From Casimicrobium sp. (GTDB lineage Bacteria > Pseudomonadota > Gammaproteobacteria > Burkholderiales > Casimicrobiaceae): 64,000 nt of DNA. Under the pieces are notes generated by a model that was given only the letters and a program-made list of their open reading frames with translations, was not told the DNA's origin and did not search any database. Each line of letters begins with the position of its first letter. Position 1 is the first letter of the stretch. The translations under genes and the position numbers were made by a program. The stretch is from positions 128,386-192,385 of the forward strand of contig JBEBJR010000001.1 of assembly GCA_040079845.1 (NCBI GenBank), in the 5' to 3' direction. Below are positions 2,906 through 32,432 of this stretch, one piece after another.

Positions 2906-4306
2906 GTGGTCGGCGTTGTGACACCCTGCCAGATAACGTCGCTTACGCGTCGATGGCTATCTCGACTCATCGCCGTCATGGCGTACTTTCCACTTGCGAT
3001 TGGAGTCCACGCGGCTGCAATCGCGTACATCCCGAACCAAACCCGGTCGTCGGTCTCAGTCGTTGACGTCAGCACTGGAATGATCGTCGCTATCGTCCCC
3101 GTCGGCGCCGCGCCAATCGGCGTCGCGGTTGCGCCGGGCGGCGGGCTTGTTTACGTCGCGGAACACAACTCGAACTCCGTCGCCGTCATATCTACGAACA
3201 CCAACACGGTGTTAGCGCAGATTTCCGCCGGAACGAAGCCCATGGGGGTCGCCGTCTCGCCCGACGGCTCGCGTTTGTACGTCACCAACTTCCTGACCGC
3301 GACCGCCTCTGGTGGCGGCTCGGTCTGGGTCGACGGGACGCTTACCGTCGTGGACGCGTTTGCACGCACCGTGCTCACGACTGTCGCGGTCGGACCGAAC
3401 CCCTACGGTGTTGCCGTGTCGCCCGACGGTAGCCGGGTGTTCGTCGCGAACTCTGGAGCGGGAACTGTGAGCGTCGTCGACGCTGCGTCCAACACAGTGA
3501 CCTCGACCATTGCCGTTGGTGCAAATCCTGTCGGCGTGGCCGCGTCGCCGGACGGTCAGCGTGTTTACGTTGCTAACAGTGGCACCGGTTCCGTTTCGGT
3601 GATCGAAGTCGCGACGCTCACCGTCAGCTCGACGACTCCTGTCGGCGGCCACGCAATGGGCGTCGCCGTCACTGACGATTCGACGCGCGTGGTCGTGAGT
3701 AACTCGTTCGACGAAACCGTTTCGGTGATTAACGCAGCGACGCTCGCGGTCTTGGGCACGGCCAACGGCGGGGTCGGGCAGGGGCCCGCGGGTATCGCGT
3801 TAGTTCCCGGTGGCACCACGGCACTGGTCGCCAATTCACGCGCTGGCTCGGTGAGTTCGGTCAACGCATCCAACTCGGCGGCCAGCGTGCTTCCGGGCTC
3901 GTTCGGCTGGCCTGTGAGCCTCGGCAACTTCATCGCCAGTAAGCCAGCGTGCGCGCTCGACGTGAGCGGCGACACAACGATCTCCGCGGCGTCGGACGGC
4001 ATGTTGATCCTCCGCTACATGCTGGGTTTCCACGGCACAGCGCTCACGGCCGGCATCAGCGGAATCGCCGGCGGCCGCTCGCCAGCGCAGATCGAGCAAA
4101 ACATCGCTGCCCTGAATCTTGACGCCGACGGCGACGGTGCGGCGCATTCGACGACCGACGGTTTGCTGCTCGTTCGCGCGTTGCTGCATCTCACTGACAA
4201 CGCGCTCATCGCCAACGCACGGAACACGGGCTTTGTCGGCGTCCGCGACGCTGCGCAGGTGTTGCAGTGGATTTCCACTGCGCATGGGACGAGTTGCTTG
4301 CTGTAG
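2906..4306 (+). CDS. Secreted YVTN-type beta-propeller repeat protein with a C-terminal dockerin/EF-hand-like pair
   Basis: About 7 units of the form P-x-G-V-A-V-S-P-D-G-S-R-(L/V)-Y-V-(T/A)-N. The C-terminus has LDVSGDTTISAASDGMLILRYMLG and LDADGDGAAHSTTDGLLLVRALLH. The start (GTG 2906) is uncertain. Confidence 0.75.
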   Translation: MVGVVTPCQITSLTRRWLSRLIAVMAYFPLAIGVHAAAIAYIPNQTRSSVSVVDVSTGMIVAIVPVGAAPIGVAVAPGGGLVYVAEHNSNSVAVISTNTNTVLAQISAGTKPMGVAVSPDGSRLYVTNFLTATASGGGSVWVDGTLTVVDAFARTVLTTVAVGPNPYGVAVSPDGSRVFVANSGAGTVSVVDAASNTVTSTIAVGANPVGVAASPDGQRVYVANSGTGSVSVIEVATLTVSSTTPVGGHAMGVAVTDDSTRVVVSNSFDETVSVINAATLAVLGTANGGVGQGPAGIALVPGGTTALVANSRAGSVSSVNASNSAASVLPGSFGWPVSLGNFIASKPACALDVSGDTTISAASDGMLILRYMLGFHGTALTAGISGIAGGRSPAQIEQNIAALNLDADGDGAAHSTTDGLLLVRALLHLTDNALIANARNTGFVGVRDAAQVLQWISTAHGTSCLL

Positions 4307-7453: not shown

Positions 7454-8500
7454 TTAGCCAACTTTTTGCTTTTCTTTCAATGAAATGAAGGTGAGCAGGC
7501 GTGTGACGAGGTCGGGCTGTGCGCAAAGGTGCTCGCGCCAGCGTTTCGCGTGGGAAGCGATCACGGGCAAGTTTGCGGCGAAAGCGGCGTACGTATCGGG
7601 GCCGGACACGCCGCGGTTGAAGGCATGGTGCGCGCTACGAATGGCCGTCGCGACGCTTGCATCAAGGCTTGCGCAGTAATGATCCAGCCAGGCGTCGAGC
7701 TTCACCAGGTGAGCGTTGTCCGCTGTGGGGTAAATGTGCCAGAGCATCGGCGTTCCCGCGTATTGCGCGCGAACGAACGAATCTTCACCACGGACGATGA
7801 GTACGTCAAACCCGGCGAGCAGCGCGTCGAATTCGGGCTGAGGGACCGTCTCTGATTTGAGCCATGTTTTGTCGGTGTCGGTGAGCGGCGAGGCGTACGT
7901 CACTTGGGCGTCGAGTGCCGTCGCGACAGCTCGGACGGGGGCGTGCGGGTAGGTGAAGGCGAAGAGCGTTGTGGGTTCTCGCTTCGATCCATCGTCATGC
8001 TCAGGACTCAACACGAGCGGGAGCGACGATTGATCGACGCTTCGCTCGCGAATCAATCCGCCGCTTGCCGCGCTGAATCCGGGGCAGAAGAAATATTTGG
8101 TCAACGGCAGGCGTGGATGCGGCGACGGTAGGCCGTGCACACCGTCTACCCACGATTCGGCGCTCAGATATTCCAAGTTGATCCACGTTGGTTTACGCGG
8201 CATCGCAGCCATGGCGTTGACGTAAGTCTGTGGAGGATCGCAGGCGAAGGCTTCTATGACGATGCTCGCGGGTTGCAGCGTCGTCGATGCACCCCATTGA
8301 ACGATGGTGATGCGTGCAAGCGATTGCGTTTCGAGATCGACATTCACCTCCGGCGCGATGAATCGAAACGCACCTAGATCGTCGACGATTAGGCGAGCTG
8401 ACATCGCGTATTCGTCCGCGAATTGGCGCGCCAAACGCCAGCAGACGCCGATGTCGCCGTAGTTGTCGACCACGCGACAGAAAATGTCTACGCTCTTCAT
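7454..8500 (-). CDS. earP: EF-P arginine-32 rhamnosyltransferase EarP
   Basis: 348 aa. The N-terminus DIFCRVVDNYGDIGVCWRLARQ is the EarP (DUF2331) signature. Adjacent to an R32-type efp. Confidence 0.88.
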   Translation of the reverse strand: MKSVDIFCRVVDNYGDIGVCWRLARQFADEYAMSARLIVDDLGAFRFIAPEVNVDLETQSLARITIVQWGASTTLQPASIVIEAFACDPPQTYVNAMAAMPRKPTWINLEYLSAESWVDGVHGLPSPHPRLPLTKYFFCPGFSAASGGLIRERSVDQSSLPLVLSPEHDDGSKREPTTLFAFTYPHAPVRAVATALDAQVTYASPLTDTDKTWLKSETVPQPEFDALLAGFDVLIVRGEDSFVRAQYAGTPMLWHIYPTADNAHLVKLDAWLDHYCASLDASVATAIRSAHHAFNRGVSGPDTYAAFAANLPVIASHAKRWREHLCAQPDLVTRLLTFISLKEKQKVG

Positions 8501-17099: not shown

Positions 17100-17129
17100 T
17101 TGTAATAGTTCCTTAATCGTGCTTATAAT
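17100..17129 (+). promoter_or_regulatory. Possible promoter TTGTAA-18-TATAAT for the NLR-like gene
   Basis: Lies in an AT-rich patch between the GNAT stop and the AGGAG/ATG at 17183/17193. Confidence 0.3.
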
Positions 17130-17192
17130 TCCTGTAACGAGCAGGGCGTGCAGCCATTGCGCGTCCCGTCTACGCTCTACGCAGGAGTACAA

Positions 17193-20100
17193 ATGATCAC
17201 GCTTAAATCGCTCCCGGCCATCGCACAATTAGAGGCGGTGCTCACTAAAAACCTGCTCGCAGGCGACGATCCGGCGCGATGCAAAGCGCTAATCAAGGTG
17301 TTGAAAGCGTCAACGGATGGGCGGCTACGCTACGACGCAGTGCTCGCGGCAGTTTTCCCTGATGGTCACCAACCTGCAAATCCGGGCAACGTCTTCACCA
17401 AGTTTCGCCAACGAGTCGGAGCGGCTGCGCAAGAAGCCGGCATCGCCTTCGAGATGCAGGTAACAGGCAGCAAACGCTCTGGTGCCGCGAGCATGTGGCT
17501 TACTTTTCACGGCGACGATGCGGCAAACGGGCAATTGCCGATGGAGGCGAGTCCGACGCACGACCCCAAAGTTTATGCACCACAGATGGCTCGCCGCGAT
17601 GTCAAGCGCATTTTCCTTAGCAACGCCGACTTGGACGGCGAGTTGGTAGCGCAATTCTTGAAGTGTCTTCGAACATCAATGGCGAGCGATGGAGATTCGC
17701 GAATTCATGAATGGGCCAGTTCCATTTTTTGGCATCGCGTCGATTTGACAGACAACCAGCAGCAACAGGCGATTCATCGAGCCATCGACGATTGTGACGT
17801 CGGGTTAATTCTGTTCTCTCGAAATCTCATCGCTAGCAGTTTTGTGCGCGGGGAAGAGCTGCCGCGGTTCCAACCTAGCAAATGGTCTGACGGCGATCCG
17901 CGAGCAAGGCCCGCCATAGCTGTGCAATTGACGAATGAGCCAATCGACCGACTACACAGCGCTGTTGGACACAAAGAATTCACGTACAGAAACTGCGTTG
18001 ACGACCACTCGGAAAAGCGCTGTAGCTTTGAGCTCGGCAACAGCACACAACGTAACCGCCTCTGCGACCAAATTGTCGAGAAACTAAAGGAATACCTGCT
18101 ACCAAGCGACGACGGCGGCGACTCGGTGTCGCCTAGCCTTCGCAAGCGTCGGCAAAAAGTCAACACTCCGTCGGAGCACTTGCCGTTGCCGTGCGCGGAT
18201 GACCGCTACAACGAGGTGCAATACGATGCGACGGCCGTCGCGCGTGCTACAGCAATCCGCCGTGCGGGGGGGCACAACGTGGCGACAAGCGGTGAAGGCG
18301 CCCCAGACGCAAACACCGCCGTATCGAAATCGGCGTCCACTGACGTTCCCGCGCTTGAATATCTGTCGACCTGGGCGACCGAGGCGAACAGATCTCGCTG
18401 GTTTGCCGTTCTCGGCGAACTCGGAATGGGAAAGACGTTTCTATGCCGCATGCTCGCAAATCGCTTGCGCAATACTCCCGATGCGCCGCGACCAATTTAC
18501 GTGGATTTGCGCAGCAGCGCCACCGACGCAGCAAACGGCGCGCGACTCACGCTGGAACTTATTCTCCAGAATTCGCTGCGTGTTGACTACAGCTCTCCCA
18601 AGTCGTTTACGCCTGAAACGTTAATTGACGGAGTTCGAAAGCGCGGGGATGTGATCATCTTTGACGGGCTCGACGAGCTCTCCGTGCACTTGAAAGACGA
18701 GGGCACTCGCGCGCTCATCGCTGAACTGTTAAGCGTCTTGCCGCCGACGCTGGAAGCGTCGACAAATCGCTCAAGTGAAGAATCGCCGACGGCGGCCAAG
18801 CAGATCGACGGCAAGCGTCGTGCAAGCTCGTCGAAGGCCGAGAAACTGGGCAAGGTCGTAATTTCCTGCCGCACACACTACTTTCCGGACATCACAAGTC
18901 AGAACGCATTTCTCTTGCAAGCACATCGCGGAAAGGCCGACGGCGAAGATGTGGAAGCTTTCACGTTGCTGCCGTTTACAGAAGAAGCGATTCGTCGCTA
19001 TTTCCGCAACGCCCTCGGCACCGACAAGGCTGATAGCGCGTTCGAGTTGATTTCGGAAGTTCACAACCTCCGAGAGTTGGCCGAACGGCCATATCTACTG
19101 AGTCTCATCACCGGGCAAATCGGCAAGCTTGAAGTGATGCGTCAACGCGGCGAAACGGTCAATGCCGCAAGCCTGTACGGTTTGTTCGCTGACGACTGGT
19201 TGCAACGCGACACTGGCAAACACGAATTCGAGCTTGCGCACAAGCGGAGCGTCATGCAGGCGCTTGCTGCGGAGATGTGGCGTGAACGTGCACGGCAGTG
19301 GTCATGGGAGCGCATGGAGCGATGGCTCAACGAATTCATGTTGTCGGTGCCTGGATGGGTGTTTCGCTACGCGGCGAAGGCCGATGTTTTGGCGAAGGAT
19401 TTGCGCACAGCCACGTTTATCGTGCGCGTCGGTGAAGATAGTTTTCGCTTTGCGCACACGTCGCTGCAAGAATATTTCTTGTCCGGCTATTTGTTAGACG
19501 CGTTGACCGCGCGTGAACTTTCGAAGTGGGACAACCTTGTTCCTTCGGACGAAACGTTCGATTTCATGTGGCAGCGATGGCAACTCATGGCGAACGGCGT
19601 TCAACGCACTGTTGTCGACGGGCTGCACGATCTGCTCGCTCGCGCAAAGCCCGCGCGCGGTGCGGTCGCGCCGCTGATCGCGTGGCAACTCTACGTGTTG
19701 AGGCAAGCCGAGAATCCGGCGGCCATTGTGAATCTCGACGGTGCAGACGTACGCGGTTGGCGGTTGGCGGGTACCGCGGATAGGCCGATGCGGTTGCCTA
19801 ATCTGACGCTGCGTGATGCTGTCGCAAAAGCGCTCACCGTAAGCCATGTTGACGCCGTGGCTGTCGATGCAAGCCGCGCCCACCTTGTACAGGCTCGGTT
19901 TGGCGATTGCGATTTTCAGCGCGCCGATATCCGCGATGCGGACCTACGTGGATCGACGTGGCGAAATGTTGACCTTCGCGACGCTCGCGTTGACGGCGGC
20001 ATGCTGGCCGGGGCGCTGTTCGACCAATGTGATGTTTCGGGAATTTCGATCGACACTAGCCACCCATCGTCGGCTGGTACTTTCGTTTTGCTCAACCCGA

Positions 20101-22067
20101 AACACTCTCCACCCATAACGACGTTTGAACGGGTCGACGTTGCGTGCGACCGTCGAGCGGTTGTTGCCGCGGGCCACACCCATTCGGTCTCGTGCGTCGC
20201 GTTCAGCGCGGACGGTCAGACGCTGGCGAGTGGTTCGTGGGACACGACGGTGAAGCTCTGGGACGTAGCGACGGGGCGCGAAAAGTTCAGCTTGGCCGGG
20301 CACACCGATTGGGTTTTGTCCGTCGCGTTCAGCGCGGATGGCCAGACACTGGCGAGTGGATCGTGCGACAACACGGTGAAGCTCTGGGACGTCATGACGG
20401 GGCGCGAGAAGCTCAGTATGACCGGGCACTGGGATTGGGGTTCGTCCGTCGCGTTCAGCGCGGACGGTCAGACGCTGGCGAGCGGTTCGGGCGACCGCAC
20501 GGTCAAGCTGTGGGATGTGGCGACCGGGCGCGAAAAGCTCAGCTTGGCCGGGCACTCCGATTCGGTCTGGTCCGTCGCGTTCAGCGCGGACGGTCAGACG
20601 CTGTCGAGCGGTTCGGGCGACCGCACGATCAAGCTCTGGGACGTGGCGACGGGGCGCGAAAAGCTCAGCTTGGCCGGGCACACCGATTCGGTCAGGTCCG
20701 TCGCGTTCAGCGCGGACGGGCAGACGCTGGCGAGCGGTTCGGAGGACAACACAGTCAAGCTCTGGGACGTGGCGACGGGGCGGGAAAAGCTCAGCTTGGC
20801 CGAGCACACCGATTCGGTCAGGTCCGTCGCGTTCAGCGCGGACGGGCAGACGCTGGCGAGTGGTTCGGCGGACAAGACGGTTAAGCTCTGGGATGCGGCG
20901 ACGGGGCGCGAAAAGCTCAGCTTGGCGGGGCGCAGAAATTCGATCTCGTCCGTCGCGTTCAGCGCCGACCGTCGGACGCTGGCGTGCGGATCGTGGGACA
21001 ACACAGTGAAGGTCTGGGACTTGGCATCGGGACGCGAACTGCTCAGCTTGGTGGGGCACCAATCTTTTGTCTGGTCAATCGCGTTTAGCGTGGACGGTCA
21101 GACTCTGGCGAGCGGATCGTTGGACTCCACGGTGAAGCTCTGGGACGTAGCGACGGGGCGCGAAAAGCTCAGCTTGGCCGGGCACACCCATTCGGTCTCG
21201 TGCGTCGCGTTCAGCGCGGACGGTCAGACGCTGGCGAGTGGTTCGTGGGACACGACGGTGAAGCTCTGGGACGTAGCGACGGGGCGCGAAAAGTTCAGCT
21301 TGGCCGGGCACACCGATTGGGTTTTGTCCGTCGCGTTCAGCGCGGATGGCCAGACACTGGCGAGTGGATCGTGCGACAACACGGTGAAGCTCTGGGACGT
21401 CATGACGGGGCGCGAGAAGCTCAGTATGACCGGGCACTGGGATTGGGGTTCGTCCGTCGCGTTCAGCGCGGACGGTCAGACGCTGGCGAGCGGTTCGGAG
21501 GACAAGACGGTCAAGCTCTGGGACGTGGCGACTGGGCGCGTGAAGCGCGCCTTGGCGGGGCATACCAAATCGGTCTCGTGCGTCGCGTTCAGCGCGGACG
21601 GCCAGACACTGGCGAGCGGTTCTTCGGACATGACAGTGAAACTCTGGGATGTGGCGACGGGGCGCGAAAAGCTGCGCTTGGCAGGGCATCAGGATTTGGT
21701 CACGTCGGTCGCGTTCAGCGCGGACGGGCAGACGCTGGCTAGCGGTTCGACGGACAACTCGGTCAAACTCTGGGATGTGTCGACCGGGTGGGCTCGTCGT
21801 TCCTTTGTGTCCTTGCCGCGCGGCGAGTGGGTCACGCTGGATGAATCGGTGTCGGACGCGCGTGAACGCGGGCTGCCGGTGATCGCAGCGAGCAACCAAG
21901 CGCCACACTACTTGCGTCAGCAGTGGCGAAATCCCGCGACGGGAAAGCTCGCATGGATGCCGTGGGCACCTCCGGGGTCGGAGCTTTGGGTGAGCGTCGG
22001 AGGTGGAAATGACCCGAAGCACGCGTTGTTTGCTGCCGTAAATCTACACTCTGAACATGACCGATAA
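17193..22067 (+). CDS. STAND/NLR-like protein: unknown N-terminal domain - TIR-like - NACHT NTPase - pentapeptide repeats - 13 WD40 repeats
   Basis: 1,624 codons. AGGAG lies 5 nt upstream of ATG 17193; the ORF-track start 17148 is a GTG. Domain motifs are listed in the sub-features below. Confidence 0.88.
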   Translation: MITLKSLPAIAQLEAVLTKNLLAGDDPARCKALIKVLKASTDGRLRYDAVLAAVFPDGHQPANPGNVFTKFRQRVGAAAQEAGIAFEMQVTGSKRSGAASMWLTFHGDDAANGQLPMEASPTHDPKVYAPQMARRDVKRIFLSNADLDGELVAQFLKCLRTSMASDGDSRIHEWASSIFWHRVDLTDNQQQQAIHRAIDDCDVGLILFSRNLIASSFVRGEELPRFQPSKWSDGDPRARPAIAVQLTNEPIDRLHSAVGHKEFTYRNCVDDHSEKRCSFELGNSTQRNRLCDQIVEKLKEYLLPSDDGGDSVSPSLRKRRQKVNTPSEHLPLPCADDRYNEVQYDATAVARATAIRRAGGHNVATSGEGAPDANTAVSKSASTDVPALEYLSTWATEANRSRWFAVLGELGMGKTFLCRMLANRLRNTPDAPRPIYVDLRSSATDAANGARLTLELILQNSLRVDYSSPKSFTPETLIDGVRKRGDVIIFDGLDELSVHLKDEGTRALIAELLSVLPPTLEASTNRSSEESPTAAKQIDGKRRASSSKAEKLGKVVISCRTHYFPDITSQNAFLLQAHRGKADGEDVEAFTLLPFTEEAIRRYFRNALGTDKADSAFELISEVHNLRELAERPYLLSLITGQIGKLEVMRQRGETVNAASLYGLFADDWLQRDTGKHEFELAHKRSVMQALAAEMWRERARQWSWERMERWLNEFMLSVPGWVFRYAAKADVLAKDLRTATFIVRVGEDSFRFAHTSLQEYFLSGYLLDALTARELSKWDNLVPSDETFDFMWQRWQLMANGVQRTVVDGLHDLLARAKPARGAVAPLIAWQLYVLRQAENPAAIVNLDGADVRGWRLAGTADRPMRLPNLTLRDAVAKALTVSHVDAVAVDASRAHLVQARFGDCDFQRADIRDADLRGSTWRNVDLRDARVDGGMLAGALFDQCDVSGISIDTSHPSSAGTFVLLNPKHSPPITTFERVDVACDRRAVVAAGHTHSVSCVAFSADGQTLASGSWDTTVKLWDVATGREKFSLAGHTDWVLSVAFSADGQTLASGSCDNTVKLWDVMTGREKLSMTGHWDWGSSVAFSADGQTLASGSGDRTVKLWDVATGREKLSLAGHSDSVWSVAFSADGQTLSSGSGDRTIKLWDVATGREKLSLAGHTDSVRSVAFSADGQTLASGSEDNTVKLWDVATGREKLSLAEHTDSVRSVAFSADGQTLASGSADKTVKLWDAATGREKLSLAGRRNSISSVAFSADRRTLACGSWDNTVKVWDLASGRELLSLVGHQSFVWSIAFSVDGQTLASGSLDSTVKLWDVATGREKLSLAGHTHSVSCVAFSADGQTLASGSWDTTVKLWDVATGREKFSLAGHTDWVLSVAFSADGQTLASGSCDNTVKLWDVMTGREKLSMTGHWDWGSSVAFSADGQTLASGSEDKTVKLWDVATGRVKRALAGHTKSVSCVAFSADGQTLASGSSDMTVKLWDVATGREKLRLAGHQDLVTSVAFSADGQTLASGSTDNSVKLWDVSTGWARRSFVSLPRGEWVTLDESVSDARERGLPVIAASNQAPHYLRQQWRNPATGKLAWMPWAPPGSELWVSVGGGNDPKHALFAAVNLHSEHDR
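17601..18097 (+). other. TIR-like domain of the NLR-like protein
   Basis: Contains RIFLSNADLDGELVAQFL (beta-A strand pattern) and AIHRAIDDCDVGLILFSRNLIASSFVRGEELPRF (the hhhhhS.n..S....E segment with a candidate catalytic Glu). Confidence 0.55.
18350..19500 (+). other. NACHT/STAND NTPase module
   Basis: Walker A GELGMGKT at 18414-18437, Walker B VIIFDGLDEL at 18651-18680, and a winged-helix-like FAHTSLQEYF near 19450. Confidence 0.8.
19731..20054 (+). other. Pentapeptide-repeat segment (~20 pentads)
   Basis: ...AHLVQ ARFGD CDFQR ADIRD ADLRG STWRN VDLRD ARVDG GMLAG ALFDQ CDVSG... Confidence 0.8.
20175..20490 (+). repeat. 316-nt perfect direct repeat, copy 1 (WD units 1-3a)
   Basis: Base-for-base identical to 21183-21498. 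The offset is 1008 nt, i.e. 8 WD units. Confidence 0.95.
21183..21498 (+). repeat. 316-nt perfect direct repeat, copy 2 (WD units 9-11a)
   Basis: Identical to 20175-20490. Confidence 0.95.
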
Positions 22068-30398: not shown

Positions 30399-32432
30399 AT
30401 GCATTTTTACGCGGTCGTCGCGCTGTCGGCATTTCTTCTCTTTCTCGTTCAGCCGTTGATCGCCAAGCAAATCCTGCCGTGGTTTGGTGGCAGCTCGGCC
30501 GTGTGGACCACGTGCATGCTGTTCTTTCAGGGCGCGCTGCTGCTGGGCTACGCGTACTCTGACGTGACGCCACGATTCTTTGGGCCAAAGCGACAGCCGC
30601 GCGTTCACATTGTGTTGGGGCTGCTGGCACTGTTGACGTTGCCGATCATCGCGCCGGAGAGCTGGAAGCCTACGGGCGGCGAGGAGCCGGTGTCGCGGAT
30701 TTTGATGTTGCTGGCGGTGACGATCGGCTTGCCGTACGTGCTGATTTCCACGACGAGCCCGCTGATCCAGAGTTACTTCGCGCGACTCAATCCGGGGCGT
30801 GATCCTTATCGATTGTTTGCGCTATCGAACGCGGCGTCGCTCACGGCGTTGGTCGCGTATCCGTTGGTGATTGAGCCGTTCGTGGGTACGCGCGTGCAGG
30901 CGTACGGCTGGTCTGCGTTGTTCGCGGTGTTTGTGTTGCTGCTCGCGGCGTTGGCATGGCGCGTGAGCCGCACGGAGACGGTATCGGTCGATGTCGGCGA
31001 AGCCGCGCCGGCGGTGGAGGTTTCGGCGAGCCAACAATTACGTTGGATCGCGTGGTCGGCGGCGGGCTCGATGTTGCTGCTCGCGGTGTCGAATCACATC
31101 ACTCAGAACGTGGCGAGCGTGCCGCTCTTATGGGTGCTGCCGTTGACGCTTTACTTGTTGACGTTCATTCTCACGTTCGACGGCACGGGCTGGTATCGGC
31201 GTGGCCGCTACTTTGCGCCGTTTGTGATCGCCATCGGCTTGATGTGTTTCTTGTTGCTGAGTTCGCAGTTTCAGTTCGATCTCGTTGTGCAAACGAGTGT
31301 GTTCTGTGCGGGATTGTTCGTGGTGTGCATGGTGTGTCACGGCGAGCTCGTGCTCGCGAAGCCCGCGCCGGCGCAGCTCACGCGGTTTTATTTGTTGGTG
31401 TCGATTGGTGGTGCGTTGGGTGCGTTACTCGTTAGCGTGGTCGCGCCATTGGTATTTACGACGTATCTGGAGACCGCTGTTGCGCTGTTGTTCGCGGCGG
31501 TTCTGTATGTGCCCGTCGCGCGTGCGTTGCGGCCGTGGTTGCGTTGGCTGGCGGTGGCGCTCGCGCTGGGCGTGATCGGTACAGGCGCCTGGTCGGTGCG
31601 CGACGAACATAAAAACACGTTGGAACTTTCGCGCAATTTTTACGGCGTGTTGAAGGTCAAGGCGTATGACGAGCGTGATAGCGAAAATTACCTCGTGCGC
31701 CTCGTTCACGGCGCGATCTTGCATGGCGAGCAATATCCGCATGAGAAGTGGCGCAAAGAGCCGACGACCTACTACACGCCGACGTCGGGCTTTGGACGCG
31801 CGGTTAACCTGCAGCGCGAGCTTGCGCCGCGCAGCAACAACACGCAGCGTATCGGCATGATTGGGCTCGGAGTGGGCACAGTCGCGGCGTATTGCCGTGA
31901 AGGCGATATTTGTCGTATCTACGAAATCAACGTGGAAGTGGAGCGCTTGGCGCGCAAGTACTTCAGCTATCTATCGGATAGCCGGGCGAAGCTTGATGTC
32001 GTGATCGGGGATGCGCGTTTGTCGCTTGAGCGCGAGGCGAGCAACCAGTTCAATGTGCTCGCGGTGGATGCGTTTTCTGGGGACTCCATTCCGATGCACT
32101 TGATCACGCGCGAAGCGGTGGCGGCGTTCGTGAAGCAAGTGCAACGCGATGGCATCGTGGCGTTTCACGTTTCAAACCGGTTCCTTGAATTGCCACCTGT
32201 ACTTGCAGAAATCGCAGCGAAAGAGGGCCTAGCCGGAGTGGTCGTGGAAGACCCGTCACAATCGAACAACAGCCTGCATTCGGCGAGCACATGGGTGCTA
32301 CTGGCGCGTTCAGCCGACGTGTTCAAGTCGATGGACGCCGCAACGGCGAAACCGCTAGAGCGCACGCCCGGCGCGCCGCTGTGGACGGATGACTTCAATA
32401 ACTTGTTGTCTGTGGTGAAGTGGAAGCGCTAA
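30399..32432 (+). CDS. Fused polytopic membrane domain + spermidine synthase-like (class I MTase fold) protein
   Basis: 677 aa. The first ~400 aa are multi-TM. The C-terminus has IGLGVGT ... AVDAFSGDSIPMHL. Confidence 0.75.
   Translation: MHFYAVVALSAFLLFLVQPLIAKQILPWFGGSSAVWTTCMLFFQGALLLGYAYSDVTPRFFGPKRQPRVHIVLGLLALLTLPIIAPESWKPTGGEEPVSRILMLLAVTIGLPYVLISTTSPLIQSYFARLNPGRDPYRLFALSNAASLTALVAYPLVIEPFVGTRVQAYGWSALFAVFVLLLAALAWRVSRTETVSVDVGEAAPAVEVSASQQLRWIAWSAAGSMLLLAVSNHITQNVASVPLLWVLPLTLYLLTFILTFDGTGWYRRGRYFAPFVIAIGLMCFLLLSSQFQFDLVVQTSVFCAGLFVVCMVCHGELVLAKPAPAQLTRFYLLVSIGGALGALLVSVVAPLVFTTYLETAVALLFAAVLYVPVARALRPWLRWLAVALALGVIGTGAWSVRDEHKNTLELSRNFYGVLKVKAYDERDSENYLVRLVHGAILHGEQYPHEKWRKEPTTYYTPTSGFGRAVNLQRELAPRSNNTQRIGMIGLGVGTVAAYCREGDICRIYEINVEVERLARKYFSYLSDSRAKLDVVIGDARLSLEREASNQFNVLAVDAFSGDSIPMHLITREAVAAFVKQVQRDGIVAFHVSNRFLELPPVLAEIAAKEGLAGVVVEDPSQSNNSLHSASTWVLLARSADVFKSMDAATAKPLERTPGAPLWTDDFNNLLSVVKWKR

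What the first reader, a model, noticed from the sequence alone, without database searches (positions are those of the whole stretch)
20172..21809. Highly internally conserved WD40 array with a perfect 316-nt intragenic duplication and column-restricted variation
Seen in sequence: all 13 WD40 units are exactly 126 nt, with no indels. Most columns are invariant (..V..VAFSADGQTLASGS.D.TVKLWDVATGREKLSLA). Differences concentrate at unit positions 3, 4, 5, 7, 8, 23 and 25, for example THS/SC, TDW/LS, WDW/SS, SDS/WS and TDS/RS. In addition, nt 20175-20490 and 21183-21498 are identical base for base, offset by exactly 8 units.

Established knowledge: this pattern of very high internal repeat conservation with hypervariable columns on the propeller surface is the hallmark of rapidly diversifying NLR sensor repeats in filamentous fungi and some multicellular bacteria. 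There it is maintained by unequal recombination and repeat shuffling.

Inference: the sensor domain here is evolving by cassette shuffling or gene conversion, and repeat number may be polymorphic between strains. The 316-nt exact repeat is also a potential short-read assembly hazard.
Basis: partly seen in the sequence, partly recalled or inferred. Interest (0 to 1): 0.7.

Follow-up and report, generated by a model that had tools for sequence, protein, structure and literature searches.

The report
Repetitive WD40 sensor of bacterial NLR
The repeats form the sensor propeller of a bacterial immune-receptor-like protein (TIR-NACHT-WD40); it varies on its predicted binding face and was recently reshuffled internally, a pattern already described in fungi and other bacteria.

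Summary
Window 20172-21809 holds 13 in-frame WD40 units of exactly 126 nt with no indels. Bases 20175-20490 and 21183-21498 are identical (316 nt, offset 8 units). The next-longest exact in-register repeat is 57 nt.

The array is the C-terminal sensor of a 1,624-aa protein (17193-22067, Casimicrobium sp. MAG, MEQ1593577.1). Its architecture is NNH6, divergent TIR, NACHT, pentapeptide repeats, 13 WD40 units and a conserved tail.

The variable columns are the same ones under diversifying selection in fungal HET-D/E repeats (cols 5, 7, 23, 25, then 3, 4). They lie in the two loops that form the top face. They recur in three independent arrays, with omega of 0.8-4.2 against about 0.25 elsewhere.

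Relatives carry 14, 5 and 5 units, and the array shows recombination signals.

Units differ by dS of about 0.47, so purifying selection preserves the scaffold and homogenisation is occasional.

Highly repetitive WD40 sensors on bacterial STAND/NLR proteins are already described. The closest solved structure is 2YMU, a highly repetitive propeller. This is a new member of a known kind. Reads were not available, so the repeat count is unverified.

The parts
17193..22067 (+). NLR-like STAND gene (1,624 aa from ATG 17193; the mechanical ORF starts at GTG 17148). It equals NCBI MEQ1593577.1, 'MAG: pentapeptide repeat-containing protein [Casimicrobium sp.]'.
   Evidence: ORF list; P0001 is 100% identical; orthologs start at the same MITLKSLP.
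17100..17129 (+). Promoter-like site (TTGTAA, 18-nt spacer, TATAAT), 64 nt upstream of ATG 17193.
   Evidence: 10 of 12 matches, but the count in the region is no higher than in shuffles, so this is weak.
17247..17543 (+). NNH6 (NACHT N-terminal helical domain 6).
   Evidence: Pfam PF22737, E 2e-16, 60.5 bits against a cutoff of 27.
17568..18182 (+). Divergent TIR-like effector domain. The conserved Glu lies in RGEELPRF (17847-17870).
   Evidence: The family profile hits TIR chains almost exclusively in the PDB (17 of 18). Five of 6 family members hit Pfam TIR_2, best E 2.3e-12, but the window protein itself reaches only E 0.054. The AF2 model (pLDDT 70.6) has Foldseek top hits that are nearly all TIR domains. 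The Glu is invariant in the alignment.
18366..19772 (+). NACHT NTPase module: Walker A GELGMGKT at 18414-18437 and Walker B IIFDGLDE at 18654-18677.
   Evidence: Pfam NACHT E 2.1e-5 (24.8 bits, just under the 26.7 cutoff) and AAA_22 above its cutoff. The D[GAS]hDE NACHT signature is read directly from the sequence (definition). The outer limits of the module are approximate.
19800..20057 (+). Pentapeptide-repeat linker between NACHT and the propellers.
   Evidence: Pfam Pentapeptide E 3.2e-8, and Pentapeptide_3.
20172..21809 (+). Thirteen WD40 units of 126 nt, the sensor propellers. Units 6 and 7 (20928-21179) are the most divergent and sit at the likely junction of two propellers.
   Evidence: In the AF2 model the blades mostly have pLDDT 85-95, with dips at units 6/7. 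Foldseek top hit is 2YMU, E 3.6e-55.
20175..20490 (+). Copy 1 of the exact 316-nt tract (units 0, 1 and the first 67 nt of unit 2). Probably the donor.
   Evidence: Unit 0 shares hypervariable residues with the ortholog's unit 0, and unit 1 groups with the ortholog's unit 1. The direction is a weak inference.
21183..21498 (+). Copy 2 of the exact 316-nt tract (units 8, 9 and the first 67 nt of unit 10). The tract ends at the hypervariable codon of column 23.
21810..22067 (+). C-terminal tail. About 62 aa are conserved in all relatives (SLPxGEWVT...LPVIAAS...YLRQ.W.NP.TG..W.PW.PG.ELWV). It may form a cryptic blade. The stop overlaps the start of the downstream Ldh_2 gene by 11 nt.
   Evidence: No Pfam or NCBIfam hit. 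AF2 pLDDT is below 50, so its fold is unresolved.

Best explanation
The repeats encode the ligand-sensing tandem beta-propeller of a single-gene bacterial NLR-like receptor. The architecture is NNH6, TIR-like effector, NACHT NTPase, pentapeptide linker, 13 WD40 blades and a conserved tail.

Shown:
- The architecture.
- The blades are canonical WD40 and closest to the solved highly repetitive propeller 2YMU.
- Variation is concentrated in the D-A loop and the start of strand A (cols 3-5, 7) and in the B-C turn (cols 23, 25). These are the elements that form the top face of a WD40 propeller and the same positions that are hypervariable in fungal HET-D/E.
- The rest of each blade is under purifying selection (omega about 0.2-0.3).
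- A discrete 316-nt stretch has been copied between positions 8 units apart.
- Relatives carry 14, 5 and 5 units.

Inferred:
- The array evolves by slow point divergence of a constrained scaffold, free or diversifying change at the binding face, and occasional RecA-type intragenic gene conversion or unequal exchange that copies blocks of blades and changes their number.
- Functionally, a protein ligand, most plausibly from a phage or other non-self source, would bind the top face. That would release NACHT oligomerisation and bring the TIR domains together, giving NAD+ cleavage and growth arrest or death of the cell, as in other TIR-bearing STAND/NLR receptors.
For: - Architecture.
- Propeller: AF2 and Foldseek 2YMU at 52% identity, TM 0.82 on the target. 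Apaf-1 is also among the hits.
- Column placement: DSSP strands put A at cols 6-11, B at 17-22, C at 26-31 and D at 37-42. The variable columns therefore lie in the D-A loop, the start of strand A and the B-C turn. The bottom loops (cols 12-16, 32-36) have omega of about 0.2.
- Pre-defined fungal columns: Paoletti 2007 codons 7, 9, 25, 27 map to our cols 5, 7, 23, 25. The later positions 10, 11, 12, 14, 30, 32, 39 map to cols 3, 4, 5, 7, 23, 25, 32.
- Omega at these sites is 4.2 (W), 1.1 (A) and 0.84 (B), against 0.26-0.28 for the rest. Randomisation gives 13, 3 and 10 of 20,000.
- Entropy profiles correlate between independent arrays, rho 0.82 and 0.73.
- Recombination: the 316-nt tract; PHI-like p=0.008; W-W dS 0.47 against W-A 0.62-0.67.
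- Unit numbers are 13, 14, 5 and 5.
- Known class.
Against: - There is no experimental or genomic-context evidence for defence. The neighbours are housekeeping genes and PADLOC gives no NLR or Avs hit.
- The window protein's own TIR and NACHT Pfam scores are below the curated cutoffs.
- Omega of about 1 in two of the three arrays fits relaxed constraint as well as positive selection.
- dS between units is high, so concerted evolution is weak.
- The W and A consensus units differ at only one signature position and the units intermix in the tree.
- The top-face assignment rests on secondary structure plus textbook topology. No coordinates or solvent accessibility were available.
- The array comes from a MAG and the reads were not examined.
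Confidence: 0.7

Rival explanations
1. Amplification and differentiation without diversifying selection. The array is simply a moderately young propeller amplified from one blade, as in the Lupas-lab model for WRAP-like propellers. The 'hypervariable' columns are then the least constrained surface positions drifting neutrally. The 316-nt tract is one more duplication step, not part of a diversification mechanism.
For: Highly repetitive WD40 propellers are widespread, including in Proteobacteria, with peaks at 7 and 14 blades and a continuum between them. Omega is about 1.1 and 0.84 in arrays A and B. The unit tree is star-like and the W and A consensus units are 93.7% identical. dS between units is 0.47-0.68.
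Against: Omega at the four pre-defined sites in W is 4.2, or 2.0 against array-wide dS. pN of about 0.5 is close to saturation, which depresses omega in the older arrays. Bottom-face loops are equally exposed yet conserved, with omega of about 0.2, so exposure alone does not explain the pattern. The same columns are the experimentally relevant specificity sites in fungal HET-D/E.
Confidence: 0.2
2. Assembly artefact. The unit count or order is wrong because a 316-nt exact repeat inside a 126-nt periodic array was resolved incorrectly in a metagenome assembly. Arrays of 5, 13 or 21 units share the same k-mer graph, and two strain haplotypes could also have been merged.
For: The source is a MAG. 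All four relatives lie on 4.5-7.8 kb contigs, and one ends inside the gene. Short-read assemblies of 126-bp HIC WD40 arrays are documented as unreliable. Skipping the 8-unit loop gives 5 units, the number seen in L002 and L003.
Against: The contig is 458 kb and runs straight through the array. The tract has two different left contexts and two different right contexts, so at least one genome must carry it twice (inference from the sequence). The reading frame and all 13 blades are intact. The two 5-unit arrays come from independent samples and their longest exact internal repeat where measured (118 nt in L002) is shorter than the k of 141 in its contig name.
Confidence: 0.12
3. Not an immune receptor. 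It would be a housekeeping or regulatory STAND signalling protein whose propellers scaffold a conserved cellular partner.
For: The neighbourhood is housekeeping and is syntenic with the ortholog: GNAT upstream and Ldh_2 downstream. No defence island is present and PADLOC gives no hit to known NLR-type systems.
Against: It carries a TIR effector with the conserved Glu. The TIR and sensor segments are extremely divergent between close orthologs while the NACHT core is nearly identical, which is typical of conflict genes. The binding face is variable and unit number changes. The family is rare and patchy, with four relatives found. Bacterial NACHT proteins of this type have been shown to defend against phage.
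Confidence: 0.15
4. Targeted hypermutation by a diversity-generating retroelement (DGR) produces the column-restricted variation.
For: DGRs diversify putative antigen sensors of conflict systems in some bacteria (abstract listed).
Against: No reverse transcriptase or template repeat lies among the ORFs scanned within about 15 kb on either side. The hypervariable codons vary at all three positions rather than in an adenine-templated NNY pattern. The same columns vary in all 13 units and in orthologs.
Confidence: 0.01

Closest known systems
Fungal HNWD / HET-D, HET-E NACHT-WD40 receptors (Podospora anserina), the 'high internal conservation' (HIC) NLR repeats
   Same: A NACHT NTPase is followed by 42-aa (126-nt) WD40 units. 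The hypervariable positions are identical once the numbering is aligned (cols 5, 7, 23, 25, then 3, 4), and they flank the conserved V and D. Both show length variation of the array and a double propeller with a possible cryptic blade or blades.
   Different: Units here are less alike: about 75% aa identity and dS of about 0.47, against about 85% aa and up to 100% nt in the fungal repeats. No paralog family exchanging repeats was found. The effector is TIR rather than HET. A pentapeptide linker and a conserved C-tail are present. Homogenisation is occasional rather than pervasive. The host is a bacterium.
WRAP / highly repetitive WD40 propellers on prokaryotic STAND ATPases (PDB 2YMU; described for Nostoc punctiforme Npun_R6612)
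   Same: It is the best structural match: E 3.6e-55, 52% identity, 551 aligned columns. Both are bacterial STAND proteins with a C-terminal array of about 14 blades folding as two propellers. Both have a proposed innate-immunity role with rapid turnover, and an association with TIR.
   Different: Npun_R6612 has almost identical blades with no synonymous differences, indicating very recent amplification. Here the blades are long diverged apart from one 316-nt tract. In Nostoc the TIR sits on a separate, co-transcribed STAND protein, whereas here it is fused. This array has 13 canonical blades rather than 14.
Bacterial NACHT (bNACHT) antiphage proteins, 'antigen receptor-type' class (Kibby et al.)
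   Same: The D[GAS]hDE Walker B signature, an NNH-type N-terminal helical domain, an N-terminal TIR-type effector, and a C-terminal tandem-repeat sensor with pentapeptide and beta-propeller modules, all listed among their architectures.
   Different: This protein was not tested, and its clade was not determined here. It has no PADLOC hit. The experimentally studied bNACHTs mostly have short C-terminal, LRR, HEAT or TPR sensors.
Apaf-1 and Apaf1-like WD40 STAND sensors
   Same: A STAND NTPase followed by two WD40 propellers that bind the activating ligand. Apaf-1 chains are among the Foldseek hits, and Apaf1-like WD40 sensors are noted in prokaryotic defence STANDs.
   Different: Apaf-1 has an NB-ARC (AP-ATPase) module, a CARD effector, 7+8 highly divergent blades and a conserved ligand (cytochrome c).

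Membership tests
WD40 beta-propeller repeat | Repeats of about 40 aa matching the WD40 profile, with GH and WD dipeptides and the D-H-S/T-W tetrad residues | tested here: met
   Pfam WD40 E 5e-148 with 13 stretches. GH at cols 1-2, WD at cols 30-31, and D24 and W30 invariant, with H2 in 12 of 13 units.
WD40 beta-propeller repeat | Four-stranded blades assembling into closed propellers | tested here: met
   AF2 gives four strands per unit, with pLDDT mostly 85-95. Foldseek matches 2YMU at TM 0.82 on the target and many double propellers. Closure and the 7+6 split, with or without a cryptic blade, are not resolved.
NACHT clade of STAND NTPases | Walker A GxxxxGK[ST] and a Walker B with the D[GAS]hDE signature | tested here: met
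   GELGMGKT at 18414-18437 and IIFDGLDE at 18654-18677. The signature definition is quoted.
NACHT clade of STAND NTPases | Match to the NACHT profile above the curated threshold | tested here: inconclusive
   PF05729 E 2.1e-5, 24.8 bits against a cutoff of 26.7. The NACHT-associated NNH6 domain is well above its cutoff at 60.5 against 27 bits. Relatives P0004-P0006 carry a precomputed PF05729 hit.
TIR domain (NADase-type effector) | TIR (flavodoxin-like) fold | tested here: met
   The family profile hits TIR chains almost exclusively in the PDB, 17 of 18. Five of 6 members hit Pfam TIR_2, best E 2.3e-12. Foldseek on the AF2 model gives top hits that are nearly all TIR domains, E 2e-3 to 5e-2, TM up to 0.65. 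The window protein alone is sub-threshold at E 0.054.
TIR domain (NADase-type effector) | Catalytic glutamate and NAD+ cleavage activity | not testable with these tools
   A Glu is invariant in the family (RGEELPRF) and aligns with the Glu of the plant '...SSSWCLDE' motif. That this is the catalytic residue is my own knowledge. Enzymatic activity is untested.
HIC (high internal conservation) NLR repeats sensu Dyrka 2014 / HR WD40 sensu Hu 2017 | Internal repeat identity of at least 0.7 (Hu), or above 85% over at least 100 aa (Dyrka) | tested here: met
   Mean pairwise aa identity is 75%, which meets Hu's 0.7. Dyrka's 85% criterion is met only locally: the 105-aa duplicate at 100% and units 2-5 at 81-90%. 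As a whole the array is below the typical fungal HIC level.
HIC NLR repeats, concerted evolution with diversifying selection (fungal HNWD model) | Repeats cluster by array or species rather than by position (concerted evolution) | tested here: inconclusive
   Every W unit's best match is another W unit, and W-W dS (0.47) is below W-A dS (0.62-0.67). Array B forms its own clade. However, W and A units intermix in the NJ tree, only one signature site separates them, and array A shows no homogenisation (longest exact repeat 32 nt; PHI p=0.13).
HIC NLR repeats, concerted evolution with diversifying selection (fungal HNWD model) | dN/dS above 1 at the top-face positions (Paoletti codons 7, 9, 25, 27) | tested here: inconclusive
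   Omega is 4.2 in W, 1.1 in A and 0.84 in B at the pre-defined columns, with pN near saturation. The estimate is pooled pairwise Nei-Gojobori, with no site model and no correction for recombination.
HIC NLR repeats, concerted evolution with diversifying selection (fungal HNWD model) | Repeat-number polymorphism between alleles or strains | tested here: inconclusive
   Counts are 13, 14, 5 and 5 units in homologous genes of different lineages. No second strain of the same species was available, and the short-read origin of the relatives limits confidence.
Anti-phage defence system (PADLOC-catalogued) | Match to a catalogued defence protein model, or location in a defence island | tested here: not met
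   The only PADLOC hits are a WD40-driven HEAT-ARM_XIII match and marginal P-loop hits at E of about 0.008. The neighbours are housekeeping genes.

The most novel reading that the evidence does not exclude
The two exact 316-nt direct repeats could act as a built-in recombination switch. RecA-mediated exchange between them would delete exactly 8 blades in frame, turning the 13-blade double propeller into a 5-blade array, the number found in two distant relatives. Unequal exchange would add 8 instead. The receptor could then toggle between single- and double-propeller sensors within a population. The ancient, allele-like divergence of the TIR and sensor segments around a nearly identical NACHT core would further suggest balanced, modular allele shuffling of a bacterial NLR in a unicellular proteobacterium.
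Probability: 0.07. Interest if true: 0.65.

Novelty: new member of a known kind. Interest (0 to 1): 0.3.

Why it matters
This is a clean bacterial example, from a betaproteobacterial MAG, of an evolutionary pattern worked out in fungal allorecognition NLRs. The scaffold of each blade is constrained, the same four to six top-face positions vary, blocks of blades are copied, and blade number changes. It supports the view that repeat-based sensor diversification is shared between bacterial and eukaryotic NLR-like receptors. It also gives a concrete case in which gene conversion can be dated against the much older divergence of the blades. It does not open a new question, because the class (HR/HIC WD40 on bacterial STAND proteins) is already described and function was not tested. 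On the practical side, the 316-nt exact repeat inside a 126-nt periodic array means the blade count of this and similar MAG-derived genes should not be trusted without long reads.

Tried and rejected
- Exact-protein look-ups of the window ORF and of P0001 in the contig collection found nothing, so no second assembly of the same allele exists to check the duplication.
- The genome scan gave only two more relatives.
- A search with the WD array for paralogs sharing the repeat family returned only arrays of 64% identity or less, in unrelated architectures. It was capped at 8,000 candidates and did not even list the known orthologs, so it is uninformative about exchange between genes.
- A DGR was rejected: no RT gene nearby and the wrong codon pattern.
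- Alternative-frame and antisense ORFs across the array (up to 372 aa) have no Pfam match and are by-products of a stop-free periodic sequence.
- No Rfam family lies in 16.4-23.4 kb.
- I first read 'no positional orthology between W and A units' as proof of shuffling. I withdrew that after the sliding-window dS showed the entire sensor segment to be an old, divergent allele.
- Model coordinates are not exposed, so solvent accessibility of the variable columns could not be computed. DSSP plus textbook topology was used instead.
- The C-terminal tail could not be modelled with confidence (pLDDT below 50), so the idea that 13 blades plus one cryptic blade make 2x7 remains open.


Full report
**1. 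The observation**

The window has one long ORF across the finding, 17148-22067 on the + strand. Tandem Repeats Finder reports a single array at 20170-21788 with period 126, 12.8 copies, 82% matches and 0% indels. Cutting 20172-21809 into 126-nt pieces gives 13 in-frame units that all read as canonical WD40 repeats of the form GH..V.SVAFSADGQTLASGS.D.TVKLWDVATGREKLSLA.

Bases 20175-20490 and 21183-21498 are identical. The match cannot be extended on either side, and the offset is 1008 nt, exactly 8 units. Background in-register identity is 81%. About 7e-27 exact runs of 316 nt or more are expected, and the next-longest exact in-register repeat is 57 nt. Identity falls straight back to 80% in the 300 nt after the tract. 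The left end lies 3 nt inside the first unit, at the edge of the array. The right end falls at the codon of hypervariable column 23 in units 2 and 10.

Thirteen of 42 amino-acid columns are strictly invariant and 13 more deviate in one unit only. The highest-entropy columns are 23, 25, 7, 3, 4 and 5.

**2. What the gene is**

The protein is 100% identical to NCBI MEQ1593577.1, 'MAG: pentapeptide repeat-containing protein [Casimicrobium sp.]'. That record is called from ATG 17193 (1,624 aa) on a 458-kb contig. The orthologs start at the same methionine.

The Pfam, NCBIfam and sequence evidence gives this architecture:
- **NNH6**, the NACHT N-terminal helical domain 6: E 2e-16.
- **A divergent TIR domain.**
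- **A NACHT NTPase**: Walker A GELGMGKT, and Walker B IIFDGLDE, which carries the D[GAS]hDE signature that separates NACHT from other STAND NTPases.
- **Pentapeptide repeats**.
- **The 13 WD40 units**.
- **An 85-aa tail** with no family match, of which about 62 aa are conserved in every relative.

The TIR assignment rests on three results. A profile of the region from six family members hits TIR chains almost exclusively in the PDB: 17 of 18, including RPP1, ADR2, RUN1, Roq1, AbTIR and TcpB. Five of the six members hit Pfam TIR_2, best E 2.3e-12, although the window protein alone reaches only E 0.054. An AF2 model with pLDDT 70.6 retrieves TIR domains as nearly all of its top Foldseek hits. 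A Glu aligned with the plant 'WCLDE' Glu is invariant.

The neighbours are housekeeping genes: EF-P/EarP, transaldolase, G6PD, RpiR, leuA and GNAT upstream, and Ldh_2, DUF3047 and ATP-grasp downstream. There is no reverse transcriptase, no mobile element and no defence island. PADLOC gives no meaningful hit. ORFs in other frames and on the antisense strand over the array have no Pfam match, and no Rfam family is present.

**3. Structure and placement of the variable columns**

AF2 on residues 974-1639 models the units as four-stranded blades with pLDDT mostly 85-95. Dips occur at units 6/7, which are the most divergent units and the likely junction of two propellers. The tail is not modelled. 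The best PDB match is 2YMU, 'Structure of a highly repetitive propeller structure', with E 3.6e-55, 52% identity, 551 aligned columns and TM 0.82 on the target. Apaf-1 chains also appear among the hits.

DSSP places strand A at cols 6-11, B at 17-22, C at 26-31 and D at 37-42. Cols 3-5 are therefore in the D-A loop, col 7 is at the start of strand A, and cols 23 and 25 flank the invariant Asp of the B-C turn. By standard WD40 topology these elements make the top, ligand-binding face. The A-B and C-D loops on the bottom face (cols 12-16, 32-36) are conserved.

**4. Selection, tested on columns defined in advance**

Paoletti et al. 2007 found codons 7, 9, 25 and 27 of the fungal HNWD repeat under positive selection, flanking the conserved codons 8 and 26. 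Anchoring codon 26 on the invariant Asp makes these our cols 5, 7, 23 and 25. The later numbering (10, 11, 12, 14, 30, 32, 39) maps with an offset of 7 to cols 3, 4, 5, 7, 23, 25 and 32.

Pooled Nei-Gojobori estimates:

| Array | Omega at the four sites | Omega elsewhere |
|---|---|---|
| W, this window (11 non-redundant units) | 4.2 (2.0 against array-wide dS) | 0.28 |
| A, ortholog (14 units) | 1.1 | 0.26 |
| B, more distant relative (5 units) | 0.84 | 0.26 |

Random sets of four columns reach the observed pN in 13, 3 and 10 of 20,000 draws for W, A and B. Per-column entropy profiles correlate between arrays, with rho 0.82 and 0.73. pN of about 0.5 is near saturation.

The binding-face sites evolve at least as fast as silent sites. 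Positive selection is suggested in this array but is not demonstrated in general.

**5. Recombination, homogenisation and unit number**

Mean identity between units is 81% at the nucleotide level and 75% at the amino-acid level. Silent divergence between units outside the hypervariable codons is dS 0.47 here and 0.68 in the ortholog. The blades are therefore old, and purifying selection keeps them alike. Apart from the 316-nt tract, the closest pairs are units 2-5, at 83-92% nucleotide identity.

A PHI-like test on the 11 non-redundant units gives p=0.008, against 0.13 for array A. More than half of informative site pairs are incompatible.

Four relatives were found:
- **P0002/L001** is 87% identical over the N-terminal 993 aa and syntenic, with Ldh_2 downstream. 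It has 14 units.
- **P0003/L002** is 52% identical and has 5 units.
- **L003**, an independent Burkholderiales MAG, has 5 units.
- **L004** is cut inside the gene.

Each W unit's nearest neighbour is another W unit, and W-W dS (0.47) is lower than W-A dS (0.62-0.67). This indicates some homogenisation in this lineage. However, W and A units intermix in a star-like tree, their consensus units are 93.7% identical, and only one signature site separates them.

No diagonal of the W-by-A unit matrix reaches the 87-88% identity of the flanks. I do not count this as proof of shuffling, because the gene is a mosaic. Between W and A, dS is 0.02-0.10 across the NACHT core (aa 361-560). It is 1.2 or more across the TIR domain (aa 161-320), and it climbs to about 1.2 in the pentapeptide region just before the array. 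The effector and sensor segments are anciently diverged alleles around a recently shared NACHT core.

**6. What the 316-nt tract is**

A simple unequal crossover at an offset of 8 units would leave 8 identical units, not 2.5. The sharp 100%-to-80% boundary fits a discrete non-reciprocal transfer (gene conversion or template switching) of about 316-319 nt, ending at the edge of homology on the left.

Unit 0 shares its hypervariable residues with the ortholog's unit 0, and unit 1 groups with the ortholog's unit 1. The 5' copy is therefore probably the donor, but this evidence is weak.

As a direct repeat, the tract would allow an in-frame deletion of exactly 8 units, leaving 5. This is the count seen in L002 and L003. 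I record this as speculation.

The same geometry means that arrays of 5, 13 and 21 units share one k-mer graph. The count therefore needs long reads, and short-read assemblies of such 126-bp arrays are known to be unreliable. Because the tract has two different left contexts and two different right contexts, at least one genome must carry it twice. I put about 12% on the count or order being wrong.

**7. Comparison with what is known**

- Fungal HNWD/HET-D/E receptors share the unit length, the hypervariable positions, length polymorphism and a double propeller with cryptic blades. They are much more strongly homogenised and exchange repeats among paralogs.
- Prokaryotic highly repetitive WD40 proteins have been catalogued, with diverse 'hotspot' sites noted.
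- Highly repetitive propellers on STAND ATPases, with a proposed immune role, an association with TIR and rapid turnover, are described for cyanobacteria. They are reported as widespread, including in Proteobacteria, with peaks at 7 and 14 blades.
- Dyrka et al. state explicitly that bacterial NLRs share high internal repeat conservation with fungal ones.
- Bacterial NACHT proteins with NNH, TIR, pentapeptide and beta-propeller modules are listed among the 'antigen receptor-type' architectures, and members of the family defend against phage. WD40 sensors also occur in defence-associated STAND clades.

**8. Verdict**

The thing is the sensor of a TIR-NACHT-WD40 bacterial NLR-like receptor. It has a conserved scaffold, a variable binding face, one recent internal gene-conversion event, and unit-number differences among relatives. 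The class and the evolutionary pattern are already described, so this is a new member of a known kind with moderate-to-low interest.

The most useful by-products are three:
- a quantitative result that purifying selection, not continuous homogenisation, maintains the repeats here;
- the modular mosaic divergence of the TIR and sensor segments around a nearly identical NACHT core;
- the practical warning about the blade count.

Noticed in passing
window 17193-20171, compared with L001 283-3261: Divergence between the window gene and its syntenic ortholog is strongly mosaic. dS is 0.02-0.10 across the NACHT core (aa 361-560). It is 1.2 or more (saturated) across the TIR domain (aa 161-320) and rises to about 1.2 in the pentapeptide region. 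The flanking Ldh_2 gene has dS 0.35. This suggests recombination between anciently diverged effector and sensor alleles around a recently shared NACHT core.
   Followed up: partly
window 21810-22067; L001, L002 and L003 C-termini: A C-terminal segment of about 62 aa after the last WD40 unit is conserved in all relatives (SLPxGEWVT...LPVIAAS..AP.YLRQ.W.NP.TG..W.PW.PG.ELWV). It has no Pfam or NCBIfam match, and AF2 does not model it (pLDDT below 50). It may be a cryptic blade that brings 13 blades to 14. More distant relatives P0005 and P0006 end with a loosely similar W-rich segment.
   Followed up: partly
window 22057-22067: The stop codon of the NLR-like gene overlaps the ATG of the downstream Ldh_2 gene by 11 nt. 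In the ortholog the gene ends earlier (...GGGNDPKRE) and 30 nt separate the two genes. The window allele therefore has a 13-aa C-terminal extension.
   Followed up: no
L001 (6.9 kb), L002 (5.7 kb), L003 (7.8 kb), L004 (4.5 kb): All four relatives of this gene sit on very short contigs, and L004 ends inside the N-terminal part of the gene. Assemblies appear to break at or near these loci.
   Followed up: no
window 20172-21809 compared with 17193-20171: The array has 65% G+C and a strong positive GC skew (+0.16 in the 20-22 kb bin). The rest of the gene has 57% G+C and the window overall 55-62%. This is probably an effect of the repeated Gly/Ala/Ser/Asp/Trp-rich codon set.
   Followed up: no
window 2906-4303 (+): A second, unrelated beta-propeller protein (YNCE-, NHL- or lactonase-like, 466 aa) lies 13 kb upstream. 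It shares no repeat similarity with the WD40 array: blastn and tblastn found no copies outside 20118-21830.
   Followed up: partly
window 30399-32429 (+): A 677-aa ORF with no Pfam hit at E<=1e-4 lies in a bin with a marked AT skew (-0.22). The translation looks like a polytopic membrane domain fused to a C-terminal spermidine-synthase-like methyltransferase fold. That reading is by eye only.
   Followed up: no
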